64,000 bases of DNA. It comes from an uncultured archaeon. GTDB lineage: Archaea > Aenigmatarchaeota > Aenigmatarchaeia > CG10238-14 > SCSR01. Made by a program: the position numbers and the translations under genes. Below, in pieces: positions 22,209 through 57,590 of this stretch. The stretch covers positions 3,283-67,282 of the forward strand of contig CAYNTH010000003.1 of the NCBI GenBank assembly GCA_964400475.1. Direction: 5' to 3'. The notes beneath the pieces are model-generated. The model ran no database searches, was not told the DNA's origin, and was given only the letters and a program-made list of their open reading frames with translations. Every line of letters begins with the position of its first letter. The stretch's first letter is position 1.

Positions 22209-22898
22209 ATGAAAGTTGCTGTTTTATTTTCAGGAGGGAAAGATTCTACCTATGCGTTGAAAAAAGCATTTGATAGTGGTTGGGATGTCGGATATATGAT
22301 TACATTGATACCCGAGAAAGATGATTCATGGATGTTCCACCATCCCTGCATAGAATTGACAAGATTACAGTCGGAATCGATAGGAATAAAACATTTGGTC
22401 AAAAATACAAGCGGAAACAAGGAAAGCGAACTAGAAGACCTCAATGAAGTATTAGCCGGTATCAGAGATGATATAGATGCGCTGGTGTCCGGTGCAATTT
22501 CAAGTAATTATCAGAAAGATAGGATAGATACAATCTGCGCGGATAACGATATAGAGAGCGTTACTCCTCTATGGGGGTTGGATCAGTCCGAACTTGTCAA
22601 AGATCAGATTGAATATGGGTTGGATATCATATTTTCTGGGGTATCTTCTGCTGGGCTGGATGAAACATGGTTGTTTCGTAAATTGGATGATCGGGCTTTG
22701 GGTGATTTGGAAAGAATCCATGACAAATATGGCATAAATATTGCTGGAGAGGGTGGAGAGTATGAGACTTTCGTAAAGGACGCTCCATTCTTTAGCAAGA
22801 ATATATTGATTGAAGATTTTGAGAAAAAATGGGACAATGAGACCGGCAGTGGGTATATAATTTGTAAAAAAGCTAAATTATTAGATAAGGTGATATAA
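22209..22898 (+). CDS. MJ0570/Dph6-type PP-loop ATPase (diphthine-ammonia ligase-like)
   Basis: MKVAVLFSGGKDSTYAL PP-loop, DDSWMFHHP and EGGEYETFV motifs. Confidence 0.7.
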   Translation: MKVAVLFSGGKDSTYALKKAFDSGWDVGYMITLIPEKDDSWMFHHPCIELTRLQSESIGIKHLVKNTSGNKESELEDLNEVLAGIRDDIDALVSGAISSNYQKDRIDTICADNDIESVTPLWGLDQSELVKDQIEYGLDIIFSGVSSAGLDETWLFRKLDDRALGDLERIHDKYGINIAGEGGEYETFVKDAPFFSKNILIEDFEKKWDNETGSGYIICKKAKLLDKVI

Positions 22899-50560: not shown

Positions 50561-50647
50561 AAAAATTTAAAAGCCTTTAAAATCATTTTTATTATCTAAA
50601 ATTAAAGTATTTAGAGCTAAAAATTATTCAAATAAAGGTCGTTGATT

Positions 50648-51064
50648 ATGGTATCTGTTAAAAAGAGGAAGATGATACTTCTTGAGAAACTCGAAATATC
50701 CAGTTTAAAGAAAATTTGTAGGATAGAGAATATATCCTCGGAAGGTACGAAGGAAGAGCTTGTGGAACGGGTTGCTAAGCATTTGTATTTGGCACCGACA
50801 AGGCTTTATGTAAAGAGGCTGGGGCTTAATGAGGAGATATCGCTTTTCAATCACGATCTAGTACCGACCCATAGGATTTTGGAAGACGATGAAAGGAAGA
50901 AGCTGTTCAAGAAATATTCCATAACTCCTAAGAACCTCCCGAGACTGAAGGTAAGGGATCCTGCTGCGATGACTATAGGTGCTAGGAGGGGGGATATAGT
51001 CGAGATAAGTCGGAAAAGTAAAACCGCGGGAGAAATCAAATATTACAGAGTCGTTGTTAGATAA
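50648..51064 (+). CDS. rpoH: RNA polymerase subunit H (Rpo5) with an N-terminal SAP/HeH-like extension
   Basis: The C-terminal ~75 aa (HDLVPTHRILEDDERKKLFKKYSITPKNLPRLKVRDPAAMTIGARRGDIVEISRKSKTAGEIKYYRVV) form the RpoH core. The N-terminal ~60 aa contain LEISSLKKICRIENISSEGTKEELVERVAKHL. Confidence 0.75.
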   Translation: MVSVKKRKMILLEKLEISSLKKICRIENISSEGTKEELVERVAKHLYLAPTRLYVKRLGLNEEISLFNHDLVPTHRILEDDERKKLFKKYSITPKNLPRLKVRDPAAMTIGARRGDIVEISRKSKTAGEIKYYRVVVR

Positions 51065-51508: not shown

Positions 51509-53074
51509 CTACAATCCCTTGGAAACATATAGCCCGTCTTTTTTATAACCGTTTTTATAGTAATATTCTCTAACACCAATCCCGCTTATTACAACAATTT
51601 TATCTTTGTCAAATTCATTTTTCGCAATATCTTCCGCCCTTTTCAGCAGTTTGCTCCCGAATCCTTTGTGTTGATAAGCGTGGTCCTTGGATTTTCCTAT
51701 TGGAACCAGCGGGCCGTATATATGTAGTTCCCTTACAATCGCTGACTTTTCCGTTATTTCTGCTCTGAACGGGTCTGACGGGATTCTCAATCTCAAAAAA
51801 CCTATCAAAACGTCATTTTCAACATCTTCATAACTTAAAAATATTTCTTTCCCGCACGATGCATCATATCTCAGTTCGCATAATCTGACATTGTCATAAT
51901 CGACCTTTTCAGAGTGTCCTACTTCTCTATACCGTATCTCCTTTATATCCGTGTTGTTATCAATTGCCGCCCTTTCGGCTAATTCCCGCAGATTGCTCTT
52001 GTCGACTCCCTTCTCGATTTCGTCAACCGATATCGTCCTCTGAACCCTTACAACTCTGCAATATTTTGGTATGTATAACATAACCTTAGACAGCAATTTT
52101 ACAGCGGTGTCAGTATCCAATGGTGTGTATTCACCTCTTTTCCACATCTCGTATAGTTCAGTGCCCTTAACAACAAGGGTTGGATATATTTTCAATGCGT
52201 CTGGTCTGAAATTAGAATTCCCAAATATTTTTCTCATTTGTTTCAAGTCGTTTTCAAAGTCAACGCCGGGCAGCCCAGGCATCATATGATAATTTACCTT
52301 GAACCCCGAATCCTTCAATAATTTTGTAGATTCCGTAACATCCTTAATAGTGTGGTTTCTCCTGCATTTATCCAATACATCAGGATAAATTGATTGTACA
52401 CCCAGTTCAACCATCGTGGTCCCATAGTTCAGCATTTCATCAATGTGATCCTTTTTACAATAATCCGGCCTGGATTCGATTATCAATCCGATACACCTGT
52501 TATCGGACTTTTCATTCATTTTTTTCGCATCTTCTAATGTAGCAGAGTCTACACCATTCATAGAATCGAATATCCTCTTTATGAATTTCCTTTTGTACTC
52601 TTTATTTCTGGCCAGAAAGGTTCCTCCTATAATGATAATTTGAATCTTGTCTGTTGGATGACCCATCATCTTGTATTGTTCTATCCTATTCCGTACCTGC
52701 TGATACGGGTCGTAATCGTTGTGTTTGGCTCTCATTATAGCCGGTTCCGTTCCAATGTAGCTTTGTGGTGAATTTTCACCTCTCGGACAGTAAATACACT
52801 CCCCCGGACATTCACCTGGTTCTGGAACTACTGTTATAATTGTAACTCCGGAAATCGTTCTTACTGGTTTTGTAAGGAGAACATTTCTTAACAGCCTTTT
52901 TTCTTCTCCACCGCATTTTGCTAATATATCTACGTTTGTTGGCATCTTTTCCAATGAATACTTCTTGCACACTTTCTTTGTTAGTTTCCACGCCCTTTTC
53001 TTAGTTAGATTGTTCTCCTTTAGAAGATTTTTAATTATCTCTTCCAAGTGCTCATCTTCGATTTTACGAGACAA
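51509..53074 (-). CDS. elp3: Elp3-type radical-SAM / GNAT tRNA wobble-uridine modification enzyme
   Basis: Radical-SAM cluster CPGECIYCP and a C-terminal GNAT domain (ELHIYG...QHKGFGSKLL). Confidence 0.9.
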   Translation of the reverse strand: MSRKIEDEHLEEIIKNLLKENNLTKKRAWKLTKKVCKKYSLEKMPTNVDILAKCGGEEKRLLRNVLLTKPVRTISGVTIITVVPEPGECPGECIYCPRGENSPQSYIGTEPAIMRAKHNDYDPYQQVRNRIEQYKMMGHPTDKIQIIIIGGTFLARNKEYKRKFIKRIFDSMNGVDSATLEDAKKMNEKSDNRCIGLIIESRPDYCKKDHIDEMLNYGTTMVELGVQSIYPDVLDKCRRNHTIKDVTESTKLLKDSGFKVNYHMMPGLPGVDFENDLKQMRKIFGNSNFRPDALKIYPTLVVKGTELYEMWKRGEYTPLDTDTAVKLLSKVMLYIPKYCRVVRVQRTISVDEIEKGVDKSNLRELAERAAIDNNTDIKEIRYREVGHSEKVDYDNVRLCELRYDASCGKEIFLSYEDVENDVLIGFLRLRIPSDPFRAEITEKSAIVRELHIYGPLVPIGKSKDHAYQHKGFGSKLLKRAEDIAKNEFDKDKIVVISGIGVREYYYKNGYKKDGLYVSKGL

Positions 53075-53930
53075 TTATTTCGCCCTCTTTCTTGAGATCA
53101 TCTTTCAATTTTTCGATATATGCCTCCAGTGGACTTTCATATCCTTTTGTCCTACCAGAATTCCTAGTGTATCCGTGTTTTTTGGCCAATTTCTTTATTC
53201 CTTTTTGTATACCAGAGCTATATTGGAAAGCCTTCTTGGGCATCATTGCTATCTTTTTAGATAATCCACAATCCAACGCCACTTCTCTAAGTATGTGTTT
53301 TCTGATTTCGTCATCTTTACCATTTATCTTCATCTTCACAGGCACCTTAAGCGCAAAATCGATTAATTCCTTTTTTAATAATGGCGTGTCGTATTCAATG
53401 CCGAATCTAGACGACGCCATGTCGAATATCTGTTTTTTATCAAATTCGGCTATCCTAATAGTTTCTAACATGTACTTTTTAATATCATCCTCTTTAGGAT
53501 AAAATCCCAAATATCTATTATAACCGCAAAACAATTCGTCTGCGCCATTGGCGGATATCAATTTTTTTATATCCTTTGTGAATGCTATTTCAAGGACGTG
53601 ATAGAATCCTATAGCTGTGTTCAAACTTGAAAATTTCCTATAATGTATGTTCGCCAACAAATCCTTCAATGTTCTTTCCAATTCTTCCAGTTCTATTTTC
53701 ATATAATTCAGTGGTAATTCTAATTCCCTTGCTGATATCTTGGCTATTTTAATATCCCTGTCCTTCGAAAATGCTACAGTGAAAAGTTCGACGGTTTTCC
53801 CACAATCCTTGGATATTTTGGCCAGTAATGAGCTGTCCACACCACCTGAGAATGATACGCCTATGCGGTCTTCCTCGATATCTCCTATTATTTTGTAGAG
53901 TTTGTTCTTGAGTTCGCTTTTATAATCCAT
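53064..53930 (-). CDS. Asparagine-synthetase-like PP-loop amidoligase (no glutaminase domain)
   Basis: IGVSFSGGVDSSLLAKI PP-loop, NGADELFCGYNRY, and C-terminal MPKKAFQYSSG. Overlaps the elp3 start by 11 nt. Confidence 0.65.
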   Translation of the reverse strand: MDYKSELKNKLYKIIGDIEEDRIGVSFSGGVDSSLLAKISKDCGKTVELFTVAFSKDRDIKIAKISARELELPLNYMKIELEELERTLKDLLANIHYRKFSSLNTAIGFYHVLEIAFTKDIKKLISANGADELFCGYNRYLGFYPKEDDIKKYMLETIRIAEFDKKQIFDMASSRFGIEYDTPLLKKELIDFALKVPVKMKINGKDDEIRKHILREVALDCGLSKKIAMMPKKAFQYSSGIQKGIKKLAKKHGYTRNSGRTKGYESPLEAYIEKLKDDLKKEGEIIVS

Positions 53931-54016: not shown

Positions 54017-54325
54017 TTAGTTGATTTTTCCACCAAGTCTTCTTATTGGATACGTGGCCAATTCTTTGACAGTATCGAGGGTCAATTCATCCGAGTGCTC
54101 TGCGTAGAAATCCTCATGTTCCTTGTTGTATCTACTTTCTACCTTCGGATCCGCTTCTAATACTATGTGCATTCTTATTGCACCGGGGCCCGATTTCGTT
54201 TTGAATCCACATCCGTCTACAGGGCAGACAAACCTTTCGATGACCTCTCCTGCATCGTCTTGTAAAACATATTTCATCAAGTTTTTATCCAATTCTTTGA
54301 GATCTTTTTTACCATATTTGGACAA
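54017..54325 (-). CDS. Hypothetical protein with a CxxxxC...H zinc-finger-like element
   Basis: 102 aa, containing FVCPVDGCGFKTKSGPGAIRMH. Confidence 0.4.
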   Translation of the reverse strand: MSKYGKKDLKELDKNLMKYVLQDDAGEVIERFVCPVDGCGFKTKSGPGAIRMHIVLEADPKVESRYNKEHEDFYAEHSDELTLDTVKELATYPIRRLGGKIN

Positions 54326-54422: not shown

Positions 54423-54450
54423 TAGGATCAAACTATTTATCAAGATTTAG
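54423..54450 (-). promoter_or_regulatory. 3' arm of the pre-23S processing stem
   Basis: Complementary to 57563..57590 as 13 bp, a 3-nt bulge, 6 bp, a 3-nt bulge on the opposite strand, then 6 bp. Confidence 0.75.
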
Positions 54451-57562
<3,112 letters not shown>

Positions 57563-57590
57563 CTAAACCTCCTTGATTAGTTTGATCCTA
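57563..57590 (-). promoter_or_regulatory. 5' arm of the pre-23S processing stem
   Basis: The RNA TAGGATCAAACTAATCAAG-GAG-GTTTAG pairs with CTAAAT-CTTGAT-AAA-TAGTTTGATCCTA at 54423..54450. Confidence 0.75.

What the first reader, a model, noticed from the sequence alone, without database searches (positions are those of the whole stretch)
51509..53930. AsnB-like amidoligase overlapping elp3: candidate for the cm5U to ncm5U amidation step
Seen in sequence:
- A 288-aa asparagine-synthetase C-domain homolog (PP-loop SFSGGVDSS, GADELFCGY) lacks the N-terminal glutaminase domain.
- Its 3' end overlaps the start of elp3 by 11 nt on the same strand, which implies co-transcription and possibly translational coupling.

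Established knowledge:
- Elp3 installs the carboxymethyl group (cm5U) at tRNA wobble U34.
- AsnB-type enzymes adenylate a carboxylate and transfer ammonia to form an amide.
- To my knowledge the enzyme converting cm5U to the amide ncm5U has not been identified.

Inference: this neighbour has exactly the chemistry needed for that step.
Basis: inference. Interest (0 to 1): 0.6.

Follow-up and report, generated by a model that had tools for sequence, protein, structure and literature searches.

The report
Glutaminase-less AsnB-like ligase coupled to elp3
A small ATP-dependent amide-forming enzyme is translationally coupled to the tRNA-modifying enzyme Elp3 in a tiny archaeal genome, and its distribution makes it a credible but unproven candidate for the long-missing enzyme that amidates the wobble-uridine carboxymethyl group.

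Summary
A 288-aa asparagine-synthetase C-domain protein with no glutaminase domain (53064-53930, minus strand) overlaps a bona fide elp3 (51509-53074) by 11 nt. Orthologue comparison supports the TTG start that creates the overlap.

The proposed function, cm5U34 to ncm5U34, is neither proven nor refuted.

Against: the adjacency is one evolutionary event in one DPANN-like lineage. Orthologues in Nitrososphaeria and Bathyarchaeia lie elsewhere, next to QueD/QueC/PCD, PurB or QueT genes.

For:
- All 18 genomes tested that carry the family also have Elp3.
- In the window's phylum, where Elp3 is patchy (158/371), the clade is 9/9 Elp3-positive, 0/9 TGT-positive and 0/5 QueT-positive.
- Canonical Dph6 and NadE coexist with it, which removes those rivals.
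- In related genomes the slot upstream of elp3 holds a Trm9-like methyltransferase, which esterifies the same carboxylate, or an NcsA/TtuA-type thiolase.
- The Trm9-like and AsnB-like genes never co-occur among Elp3-positive genomes (0/9 versus 102/149).

I put about 0.4 on action at the cm5U34 carboxylate. The product could be the amide or, by analogy with QueC and PesC, the archaeal nitrile cnm5U. No publication linking the two was found.

The parts
53064..53930 (-). AsnB-like gene: 288-aa stand-alone asparagine-synthetase C-terminal (PP-loop synthetase) domain with no glutaminase domain
   Evidence: ORF. PF00733 E 1.3e-31. TIGR01536 scores 106 bits, below its 267 cut-off. AF2 pLDDT 91.7. 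Best structural match is E. coli AsnB 1ct9, TMq 0.76.
53829..53855 (-). PP-loop ATP-pyrophosphatase motif SFSGGVDSS (residues 26-34)
   Evidence: Coordinates. S28, G30, D32 and S33 are invariant in 42 family members. Aligns to the AsnB SGGLDSS motif.
53520..53546 (-). Active-site motif GADELFCGY (residues 129-137). The preceding N128 replaces AsnB Glu348, and C135 is family-specific.
   Evidence: G129, D131, E132, L133, F134, G136 and Y137 invariant; N128 and C135 in at least 90%. Alignment to AsnB SGEGSDEVFGGY.
53211..53237 (-). Motif KKAFQYSSG (residues 232-240), containing the conserved lysine that aligns with AsnB Lys449
   Evidence: K232, K233, Q236 and Y237 invariant. Alignment.
53064..53074 (-). 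11-nt overlap: the last codons and stop of the AsnB-like gene contain the TTG start of elp3 (ATTGTCTCGTAA)
   Evidence: Sequence. Conserved ATTGTCT overlap and N-terminal length comparison.
51509..53074 (-). elp3: radical-SAM/GNAT tRNA U34 carboxymethyl-forming enzyme, 521 aa
   Evidence: TIGR01211 694.6 bits. ELP3_N, Radical_SAM, Radical_SAM_C and GNAT domains.
54017..54325 (-). 102-aa ORF between the 23S rRNA and the AsnB-like gene (CPVDGCGF...H motif). Uncertain gene, not conserved in relatives, which carry an unrelated small basic ORF here.
   Evidence: No Pfam or NCBIfam hit. Relatives have family F11 instead.
54446..57568 (-). 23S rRNA gene immediately upstream on the same strand, part of the conserved block 23S - small ORF - AsnB-like - elp3
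   Evidence: Rfam RF02540, 2504.8 bits. Spurious ORF families F7/F8 inside the 23S recur upstream in G001, G002, G135, P0003, P0006 and P0010.

Best explanation
The 288-aa protein is an ammonia-dependent, ATP-consuming amidoligase of the asparagine-synthetase B synthetase-domain class. It acts on tRNA after Elp3.

Proposed mechanism: Elp3, translated from the overlapping downstream cistron, installs the carboxymethyl group on wobble U34 (cm5U). The AsnB-like enzyme adenylates that carboxylate through its PP-loop site, giving an acyl-AMP plus PPi. Free ammonia then attacks to give 5-carbamoylmethyluridine (ncm5U). A second ATP-dependent dehydration to the nitrile cnm5U is possible.

On this reading it is the amide-forming alternative to Trm9, which caps the same carboxylate as a methyl ester.

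Shown: the enzyme class, the absence of a glutaminase, the coupling to elp3, and the phyletic patterns. Inferred: the substrate, the nitrogen donor and the product.
For: (1) Class and chemistry. PF00733 hit. Confident model whose best matches are AsnB, carbapenam synthetase and beta-lactam synthetase, TMq 0.71-0.76. PP-loop and the Lys449-equivalent are invariant.

(2) Not an aspartate enzyme. By my recollection of the AsnB residue roles, the residues aligned to Thr322, Thr323, Arg325, Glu348 and Arg387 are Ser, Ser, Asn, Asn and Gln, and Lys376 falls in a gap. TIGR01536 scores far below its cut-off.

(3) Coupling. Same strand, with an 11-nt overlap that is conserved as an overlap or a gap of 20 nt or less in 7 loci.

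(4) Co-occurrence. 18/18 genomes with the family have Elp3. In the window's phylum, where Elp3 is present in 158/371 genomes, the clade is 9/9 Elp3-positive (p=4e-4 by genome; 0.019 by genus within family f1).

(5) Rival partners are absent from the clade's genomes: TGT 0/9, QueT 0/5, QueC and NadE absent in G000, and Lyase_1 in only 1 of 5. Canonical Dph6 is present.

(6) Elp3 neighbourhoods are informative in this phylum. A Trm9-like methyltransferase lies within 0-3 kb of elp3 in dozens of genomes and co-occurs with it (odds ratio 47). An NcsA/TtuA-type thiolase and the CCA-adding enzyme are also elp3 neighbours.

(7) Complementarity. Among Elp3-positive genomes, AsnB-like and Trm9-like never coincide: 0/9 against 102/149 (p=5.7e-5 by genome). 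The 11 Elp3-positive genera of family f1 split 4 AsnB-like, 5 Trm9-like, 2 neither, 0 both (p=0.045). Nitrososphaeria and Bathyarchaeia genomes with the family also lack a full-length Trm9-like protein.

(8) G000 has at least 10 U34 tRNAs.

(9) Precedent for the chemistry: AS-like PesC makes a nitrile through the amide.
Against: The elp3 adjacency is a single event. All adjacent loci share a larger conserved block, and three genera of the same family (genomes G146/G147, G009) have the two genes on different contigs.

Orthologues in Nitrososphaeria (about 70 loci) and Bathyarchaeia are never near elp3. Their conserved neighbours are PCD, QueD-type PTPS, QueC, PurB or QueT.

A PurB-type lyase recurs near the gene in three settings.

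Elp3 is almost universal outside DPANN, so co-occurrence there carries little weight.

The statistics are not corrected for phylogeny, and only 4 genera carry the clade in the informative phylum.

149 Elp3-positive genomes in the phylum, and S. acidocaldarius, lack the gene.

The closest paralogous clade includes one Elp3-negative genome, G048, 91% complete.

There is no recognisable RNA-binding domain. No nucleoside data exist for any organism that carries the gene. I could not establish whether the cnm5U-positive Euryarchaeota carry orthologues.
Confidence: 0.4

Rival explanations
1. It is an amidoligase, or an amine- or peptide-ligating enzyme of the AsnB/beta-lactam-synthetase class, acting on a small molecule or a peptide/protein carboxylate unrelated to tRNA U34. 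The elp3 adjacency is then an accident of compact gene packing downstream of the rRNA gene in one lineage.
For: Adjacency is one event, and most orthologues are unlinked. Neighbours differ by lineage. The related long form keeps a GATase-like domain that lacks the catalytic Cys, as I recall is the case for beta-lactam and carbapenam synthetases, which use a substrate-borne amine. AS-like enzymes amidate peptide C-termini.
Against: The gene is retained in 0.5-1.0 Mb genomes with little biosynthesis. It is strictly confined to Elp3-positive genomes in a phylum where Elp3 is patchy, and it is mutually exclusive with the Trm9-like gene while occupying the same slot. No conserved candidate substrate gene lies beside it, since the small upstream ORF is not conserved in the window.
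Confidence: 0.27
2. It works on tRNA or the translation apparatus, but not by amidating cm5U. For example it could activate another carboxylate-bearing modification (acp3U, t6A, or wyosine intermediates), or carry out different PP-loop chemistry at U34.
For: The neighbourhood is translation-related: 23S rRNA, elp3, aIF5A; RtcB and an aminoacyl-tRNA synthetase in Nitrososphaeria. G000 lacks an NcsA/TilS-type PP-loop enzyme. The family has a conserved Cys135.
Against: The structure matches carboxylate-adenylating AsnB-class enzymes far better than thiolases (TMq 0.76 against about 0.4). To my knowledge no amide derivative of those other modifications is known. The complementarity with the Trm9-like gene points to the cm5 carboxylate.
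Confidence: 0.12
3. It belongs to the 7-deazaguanine (preQ0/archaeosine) pathway, for example amidating 7-carboxy-7-deazaguanine or processing a salvaged precursor imported by QueT.
For: QueT lies divergently upstream in most Bathyarchaeia loci, in varying outer contexts. A QueD-type PTPS carrying what I recall as the Cx3HGH QueD motif, and QueC, lie within about 1.5 kb in Nitrososphaeria. QueC performs the same kind of PP-loop chemistry.
Against: The same orthologous clade (SH-aLRT 100) is kept in DPANN genomes with no TGT (0/9), no QueT (0/5) and no QueC. Nitrososphaeria already have a near-cut-off QueC. TIGR00364 scores 17 bits against a cut-off of 150.
Confidence: 0.07
4. It is a plain ammonia-dependent asparagine synthetase, or another housekeeping amidation enzyme such as a NadE or Dph6 substitute, or a purine-pathway enzyme working with the PurB-type lyase.
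For: The AsnB synthetase domain is the closest relative. As I recall, isolated AsnB synthetase domains can use ammonia. PurB-type lyase is a recurrent neighbour. G000 lacks NadE.
Against: Aspartate-binding residues, as I recall them, are not conserved, and the hit is below the curated cut-off. Canonical Dph6 is present in all 5 genomes tested, including this window. Canonical NadE coexists with the orthologue in Nitrososphaeria and Bathyarchaeia. Four of five DPANN genomes with the gene have no Lyase_1 protein.
Confidence: 0.07

Closest known systems
Asparagine synthetase B (E. coli AsnB, PDB 1CT9; human ASNS)
   Same: Same synthetase-domain fold (TMq 0.76). Shares the PP-loop SGGxDS, the DE(L/V)FxGY motif, the KHILRE motif and the Lys449-equivalent. 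Presumably forms an acyl-adenylate from a carboxylate and then an amide.
   Different: No N-terminal class-II glutaminase domain. By my recollection of residue roles, the aspartate-contacting positions (Thr322, Thr323, Arg325, Arg387, Lys376) and Glu348 are not conserved. Scores 106 bits against the 267-bit equivalog cut-off.
Beta-lactam synthetase and carbapenam synthetase (PDB 1MC1, 1Q19)
   Same: AsnB-class enzymes that adenylate a non-aspartate carboxylate. TMq 0.71-0.73. As I recall, they have an inactive glutaminase domain, like the Bathyarchaeia long form related to this family.
   Different: They catalyse intramolecular lactam formation on small molecules in bacterial antibiotic pathways and keep the N-terminal domain. 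Identity is about 17%.
QueC (7-cyano-7-deazaguanine synthase) and the AS-like nitrile synthetase PesC
   Same: ATP-dependent conversion of carboxylate to amide to nitrile. QueC uses free ammonia, and PesC is an asparagine-synthetase-like protein. They serve as models for a possible cm5U to ncm5U to cnm5U route.
   Different: The QueC family model scores only 17-19 bits. PesC uses glutamine and acts on peptide C-termini. No nitrile-specific signature is known.
Trm9-Trm112 (tRNA cm5U34 methyltransferase)
   Same: A functional analogue rather than a homologue: it derivatises the Elp3-made carboxylate. Its archaeal look-alike occupies the same position upstream of elp3 in sister genera and is mutually exclusive with the AsnB-like gene.
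   Different: It is a SAM-dependent class-I methyltransferase that makes a methyl ester (mcm5U), not an ATP-dependent amidoligase.
Dph6 (diphthine-ammonia ligase, PF01902)
   Same: ATP- and ammonia-dependent amidation of a carboxylate on a macromolecule of the translation apparatus, by an adenine-nucleotide alpha-hydrolase fold without a glutaminase.
   Different: A different family. The canonical Dph6 is separately encoded in this window (about 22209-22871) and in every genome tested.

Membership tests
Asn_synthase superfamily (PF00733; AsnB / beta-lactam synthetase / carbapenam synthetase synthetase domain) | Significant match to the family profile | tested here: met
   PF00733 E 1.3e-31, 111 bits against a cut-off of 21.
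Asn_synthase superfamily (PF00733; AsnB / beta-lactam synthetase / carbapenam synthetase synthetase domain) | PP-loop SGGxDS ATP-pyrophosphatase motif and AsnB-type synthetase fold | tested here: met
   SFSGGVDSS at residues 26-34, invariant in 42 relatives. Foldseek top hits are 1ct9, 6gq3, 1q19 and 1mc1, TMq 0.71-0.76.
Asparagine synthetase B proper (glutamine-hydrolysing, TIGR01536 / PRK09431) | N-terminal class-II glutaminase domain with a Cys nucleophile | tested here: not met
   No GATase Pfam hit. The protein aligns from its residue 20-22 to AsnB residue about 228. There is no coding room upstream.
Asparagine synthetase B proper (glutamine-hydrolysing, TIGR01536 / PRK09431) | Score above the curated equivalog cut-off | tested here: not met
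   TIGR01536 scores 106.2 against 267.1. NF006949 scores 95.7 against 499.
Asparagine synthetase B proper (glutamine-hydrolysing, TIGR01536 / PRK09431) | Aspartate-binding and catalytic residues (Thr322, Thr323, Arg325, Glu348, Lys376, Arg387 of E. coli AsnB; roles recalled from the literature) | tested here: not met
   The alignment gives Ser, Ser, Asn, Asn128, a gap and Gln. Only Asp384 (as Asp164) and Lys449 (as Lys233) are kept. The residue roles come from memory, not from a tool.
QueC (TIGR00364 / PF06508) | Score above the curated cut-off | tested here: not met
   17.4 bits against 150.3. PF06508 scores 19 against 22.
QueC (TIGR00364 / PF06508) | Occurs with the rest of the 7-deazaguanine pathway (TGT and others) | tested here: not met
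   TGT 0/9, QueT 0/5 and QueC absent in the clade's DPANN genomes.
Hypothetical cm5U34 amidoligase (no described family) | Present only where Elp3 is present | tested here: met
   18/18 genomes. In the window's phylum 9/9 against a background of 43%. Power is limited to 4 genera.
Hypothetical cm5U34 amidoligase (no described family) | Gene linkage to elp3 or other U34-modification genes across lineages | tested here: inconclusive
   Tight linkage in one lineage, 7 loci. None in Nitrososphaeria or Bathyarchaeia.
Hypothetical cm5U34 amidoligase (no described family) | Complementary distribution with the alternative carboxylate-capping enzyme Trm9 | tested here: met
   0/9 against 102/149 among Elp3-positive genomes. 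Family f1 genera split 4 / 5 / 2 with 0 both. Five further genomes lack a full-length Trm9-like protein.
Hypothetical cm5U34 amidoligase (no described family) | Converts cm5U-tRNA to ncm5U or cnm5U with ATP and ammonia; the modification is present in organisms carrying the gene | not testable with these tools
   Needs biochemistry and LC-MS. No nucleoside data were found for any carrier organism.

The most novel reading that the evidence does not exclude
This family is the long-missing enzyme that derivatises the Elp3-made cm5U34 carboxylate with nitrogen. It comprises the short form in some DPANN, Bathyarchaeia and Nitrososphaeria, and a long form with a dead glutaminase domain in other Bathyarchaeia. 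It would make ncm5U, and perhaps go on to the archaeal nitrile cnm5U. It would be the evolutionary alternative to Trm9 methyl-esterification.
Probability: 0.4. Interest if true: 0.85.

Novelty: new variant of a known kind. Interest (0 to 1): 0.62.

Why it matters
Elongator/Elp3-dependent wobble-uridine modifications are conserved from archaea to humans. The step that turns cm5U into the amide ncm5U has had no assigned enzyme for decades, and neither has the archaeal nitrile cnm5U.

A concrete, small, single-domain candidate would make the question directly testable in vitro. Three genomic arguments back it: coupling to elp3, strict co-occurrence with Elp3, and mutual exclusivity and positional equivalence with a Trm9-like gene.

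It would also give a template for hunting the eukaryotic enzyme, for instance among orphan AsnB-like proteins.

As a by-product, the analysis shows that many DPANN-type archaea encode a Trm9-like gene linked to elp3. That implies mcm5U-type chemistry is more widespread in archaea than I had understood it to be.

Tried and rejected
(1) General synteny with elp3 is rejected. Only 2 of 80 named-genome loci show it, and all positive loci are one lineage.

(2) A Dph6 substitute is rejected. Canonical PF01902 is present in all 5 genomes, including this window.

(3) A NadE substitute is rejected. Canonical NadE coexists with the orthologue.

(4) A QueC substitute or archaeosine enzyme is rejected for the orthologous clade. 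There is no TGT, QueT or QueC in the DPANN carriers, and Nitrososphaeria have QueC.

(5) Obligatory partnership with a PurB-type lyase (aspartate as N-donor) is rejected. Four of five DPANN carriers lack any Lyase_1 protein.

(6) A thiolase reading is disfavoured by structure.

(7) A small upstream ORF as a peptide substrate is rejected. The relatives' basic ORF F11 is not present in the window, and F7/F8 are spurious ORFs inside the 23S rRNA.

(8) The weaker 'intermediate' DPANN hits fall outside the orthologous clade, so they were not pooled with it.

(9) Literature searches for a prior proposal linking AsnB-like proteins, ASNSD1 or YML096W to Elp3 or ncm5U found nothing.

(10) Earlier scan notes: nothing on record.

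(12) I could not determine whether the cnm5U-positive Euryarchaeota (Methanocaldococcus, Thermococcus, Haloferax) have orthologues. Named control genomes are only reported for library families, and PF00733 does not separate this clade from true AsnB.
Full report
OBSERVATION. The window carries two ORFs on the minus strand: 53064-53930 (288 aa) and 51509-53074 (521 aa), sharing 11 nt.

The 521-aa protein is an unambiguous Elp3. It scores 694.6 bits on TIGR01211 against a cut-off of 350 and has ELP3_N, Radical_SAM, Radical_SAM_C and GNAT domains.

The 288-aa protein matches only the asparagine-synthase family PF00733 (E 1.3e-31), with weak echoes of other PP-loop families. It has no glutaminase domain, and it scores far below the curated asparagine-synthetase cut-offs (106 against 267 bits). 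The quoted motifs are at residues 26-34 and 129-137.

Upstream there is only a 102-aa ORF without family hits, followed by the 23S rRNA gene (54446-57568, same strand). A separate or frameshifted glutaminase domain is therefore excluded.

The overlap depends on a TTG start, and comparison with orthologues supports that start. It gives the same N-terminal length as orthologues with clear ATG starts. The overlapping string ATTGTCT recurs in two relatives (overlaps of 8 and 17 nt), and four others have gaps of only 4-20 nt.

WHAT THE PROTEIN IS. An AlphaFold2 model built on 29 homologues is confident (pLDDT 91.7, pTM 0.88). Its best matches in the PDB are the synthetase domains of E. coli AsnB and human ASNS (TMq 0.75-0.76), carbapenam synthetase and beta-lactam synthetase (0.71-0.73). 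LarE, NadE and TtuA-type PP-loop proteins reach only about 0.4.

Across 42 family members the following are invariant:
- the PP-loop residues S28, G30, D32 and S33;
- G129, D131, E132, L133, F134, G136 and Y137;
- K201, R210 and K211;
- K232, K233, Q236 and Y237.

In the alignment to E. coli AsnB, the positions I recall as contacting aspartate or controlling adenylate formation (Thr322, Thr323, Arg325, Glu348, Lys376, Arg387) are Ser, Ser, Asn, Asn, a gap and Gln. The ATP/PPi lysine (Lys449) is kept.

So this is a carboxylate-adenylating, amide-forming enzyme of the AsnB class. It must take nitrogen from free ammonia or a substrate amine, and it is unlikely to act on free aspartate. It is a member of the PF00733 superfamily but not an asparagine synthetase B.

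HOST AND FAMILY. The window lies in a 0.65-Mb, 88%-complete archaeal genome of DPANN type. Homologues of about 250-300 aa are abundant in Bathyarchaeia and Nitrososphaeria.

A maximum-likelihood tree gives one well-supported orthologous clade (SH-aLRT 100). Within it, the window's lineage and Bathyarchaeia together are sister to Nitrososphaeria. Other short or long DPANN hits fall outside the clade.

In a sample of 301 Thermoproteota genomes, 86 have a family member:
- about 49 have the short form;
- about 37 have a form of about 490 aa, in Bathyarchaeia, whose extra N-terminal GATase_7 domain begins MGAL rather than with the catalytic Cys.

No genome in that sample showed both forms at that threshold.

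SYNTENY TEST. Of 80 loci from named genomes, only two have Elp3 within the flanks. Metagenome contigs added three more, encoding P0003, P0006 and P0010.

All seven adjacent loci share a larger conserved block: 23S rRNA, small ORF, AsnB-like, elp3, a membrane protein, aIF5A and further genes. The adjacency is therefore one event in one lineage. Three genomes of the same taxonomic family (G146, G147, G009) carry the orthologue on a different contig from elp3.

Elsewhere the neighbours are different:
- In Nitrososphaeria they are PCD, a QueD-type PTPS, QueC, a PurB-type lyase, RtcB and an aminoacyl-tRNA synthetase.
- In Bathyarchaeia they are QueT, with or without a thioredoxin gene.
- For the long form and for G146, the neighbour is again a PurB-type lyase.

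PHYLETIC TESTS. Elp3 exceeds its curated cut-off in four of the named control genomes and in all nine non-DPANN carriers tested. The informative arena is therefore the window's own phylum. There Elp3 is present in 158 of 371 sampled genomes and TGT in 48.

The orthologous clade occurs there in nine genomes of four genera. All nine have Elp3. None has TGT. Five tested have no QueT. G000 has no QueC, NadE, NcsA/TilS-type enzyme or Lyase_1 protein.

This excludes a 7-deazaguanine role for the orthologue and an obligatory PurB partner. Canonical Dph6 is present in all five genomes tested, including this window at about 22209-22871. Canonical NadE coexists with the orthologue in Nitrososphaeria and Bathyarchaeia. 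These results remove the other known ammonia-dependent amidations as explanations.

Co-occurrence with Elp3 is 9/9. That gives p=4e-4 by genome, or 0.019 counting genera within the family. In total 18/18 carriers have Elp3.

THE TRM9 ARGUMENT. I asked what lies next to elp3 in relatives that lack the AsnB-like gene, and found three genes:
- a CCA-adding enzyme downstream of elp3;
- an NcsA/TtuA-type 2-thiouridine synthetase upstream;
- a class-I methyltransferase upstream. It aligns nearly end to end with PDB 5cm2 chain Z, a tRNA methyltransferase that I recall as Trm9, and it carries what I recall as Trm9-like terminal motifs.

Searched across the phylum, this Trm9-like protein is found full-length in about 110 genomes, 102 of them Elp3-positive (odds ratio 47). 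It lies within 0-3 kb of elp3 in dozens of genomes of at least ten families. Gene neighbourhood around elp3 is therefore informative in this group, and the upstream slot is used by enzymes that act on the same nucleotide.

None of the nine AsnB-like genomes has a full-length Trm9-like protein, against 102 of the other 149 Elp3-positive genomes (p=5.7e-5 by genome). The eleven Elp3-positive genera of the window's family split into four with AsnB-like, five with Trm9-like, two with neither and none with both (p=0.045). Five Nitrososphaeria and Bathyarchaeia carriers also lack a full-length Trm9-like protein.

Trm9 esterifies exactly the carboxylate that an AsnB-type enzyme would adenylate and amidate. 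Positional equivalence plus mutual exclusivity is what one expects of two alternative ways of capping cm5U.

MECHANISM PROPOSED. Elp3 makes cm5U34. The AsnB-like enzyme adenylates the side-chain carboxylate, and ammonia displaces AMP to give ncm5U34.

QueC and the asparagine-synthetase-like PesC both carry a carboxylate through the amide to a nitrile with a second ATP. The archaeal wobble nucleoside cnm5U has no known enzyme. The product could therefore be the nitrile instead.

G000 offers at least ten U34 tRNAs as substrates.

Shown: enzyme class, lack of a glutaminase, coupling to elp3, and the phyletic patterns. Inferred: substrate, nitrogen donor and product.

CAVEATS. The statistics ignore phylogenetic relatedness and rest on four genera. 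The QueT, QueD/QueC and PurB neighbourhoods in the larger lineages remain unexplained. The Trm9 identity of the methyltransferase is probable, not proven. No nucleoside data exist for any carrier organism. Presence of the family in cnm5U-positive Euryarchaeota could not be tested with the handles available.

I therefore give 0.4 to action on the cm5U34 carboxylate. The remainder is spread over an unrelated substrate (0.27), another tRNA or translation target (0.12), the 7-deazaguanine pathway (0.07) and housekeeping amidations (0.07).

NOVELTY. The literature held here does not link any AsnB-like protein to Elp3 or to ncm5U/cnm5U. Reviews to 2023 list the ncm5U enzyme as unknown. The protein itself is a new variant of a known enzyme class. 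If the proposed function holds, it fills a long-standing gap in the Elongator pathway.

Noticed in passing
L019:529-1185, L020:476-1267 and dozens of genomes: A Trm9-like class-I methyltransferase is linked to elp3 (co-directional or divergent, 0-3 kb) across at least ten families of this DPANN-type phylum. It co-occurs with Elp3 (102 of 110 genomes; odds ratio 47). In some genomes the order is Trm9-like, NcsA/TtuA-like, Elp3. This suggests mcm5(s2)U-type chemistry is widespread in these archaea.
   Followed up: partly
L024-L030, L136, L137, L139 (Bathyarchaeia loci): The AsnB-like orthologue is divergently paired with a QueT-family transporter gene, sometimes with a thioredoxin gene between, in varying outer contexts. 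This is unexplained, given that the same orthologue occurs in genomes without TGT or QueT.
   Followed up: partly
Nitrososphaeria loci L031-L101; G041:C1:68338-71008: A conserved cluster places QueC-like, QueD-type PTPS (CSILHGH motif) and pterin-4a-carbinolamine dehydratase divergently upstream of the AsnB-like gene, with a PurB-type lyase convergently downstream.
   Followed up: partly
L144-L147 (Bathyarchaeia); P0121: Proteins of about 490 aa annotated 'asparagine synthetase B' have a GATase_7 domain that starts MGAL, with no N-terminal Cys nucleophile. They are probably not glutamine-dependent asparagine synthetases. They appear to replace the short form genome by genome.
   Followed up: partly
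window 50642-51064 (+): The RNA polymerase subunit Rpb5/H C-terminal domain is fused to an N-terminal SAP DNA-binding domain (PF01191 plus PF02037), an unusual architecture for an archaeal RpoH.
   Followed up: no
window 54446-57568 (-): The 23S rRNA gene stands without a 16S or 5S gene in the 64-kb window (an unlinked rRNA operon). Protein-coding genes (AsnB-like, elp3) follow directly on the same strand, an arrangement conserved in relatives.
   Followed up: partly
L134 (GCA_016933765.1, JAFGAH010000025.1): A contig labelled as a Kosmotogaceae bacterium MAG carries archaeal histone, aIF5A, TFIIB, Elp3 and the AsnB-like gene. It is probably a mis-binned archaeal contig.
   Followed up: no
G000 whole genome: Aragorn finds only 25 tRNA genes, including a tRNA-Tyr called with anticodon ATA. 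The set is probably incomplete, or intron-containing and split tRNAs were missed. The odd Tyr call was not checked.
   Followed up: no
window about 22209-22871 (+): The canonical diphthine-ammonia ligase Dph6 (PF01902, 211 bits) is encoded in the same window.
   Followed up: partly
G146:C1:228134-231273 (L141): In this 1.0-Mb DPANN genome, the sole Lyase_1 (PurB-type) gene and an AIR-synthase-related gene sit next to the AsnB-like gene. An arginase-family gene lies convergently downstream.
   Followed up: partly
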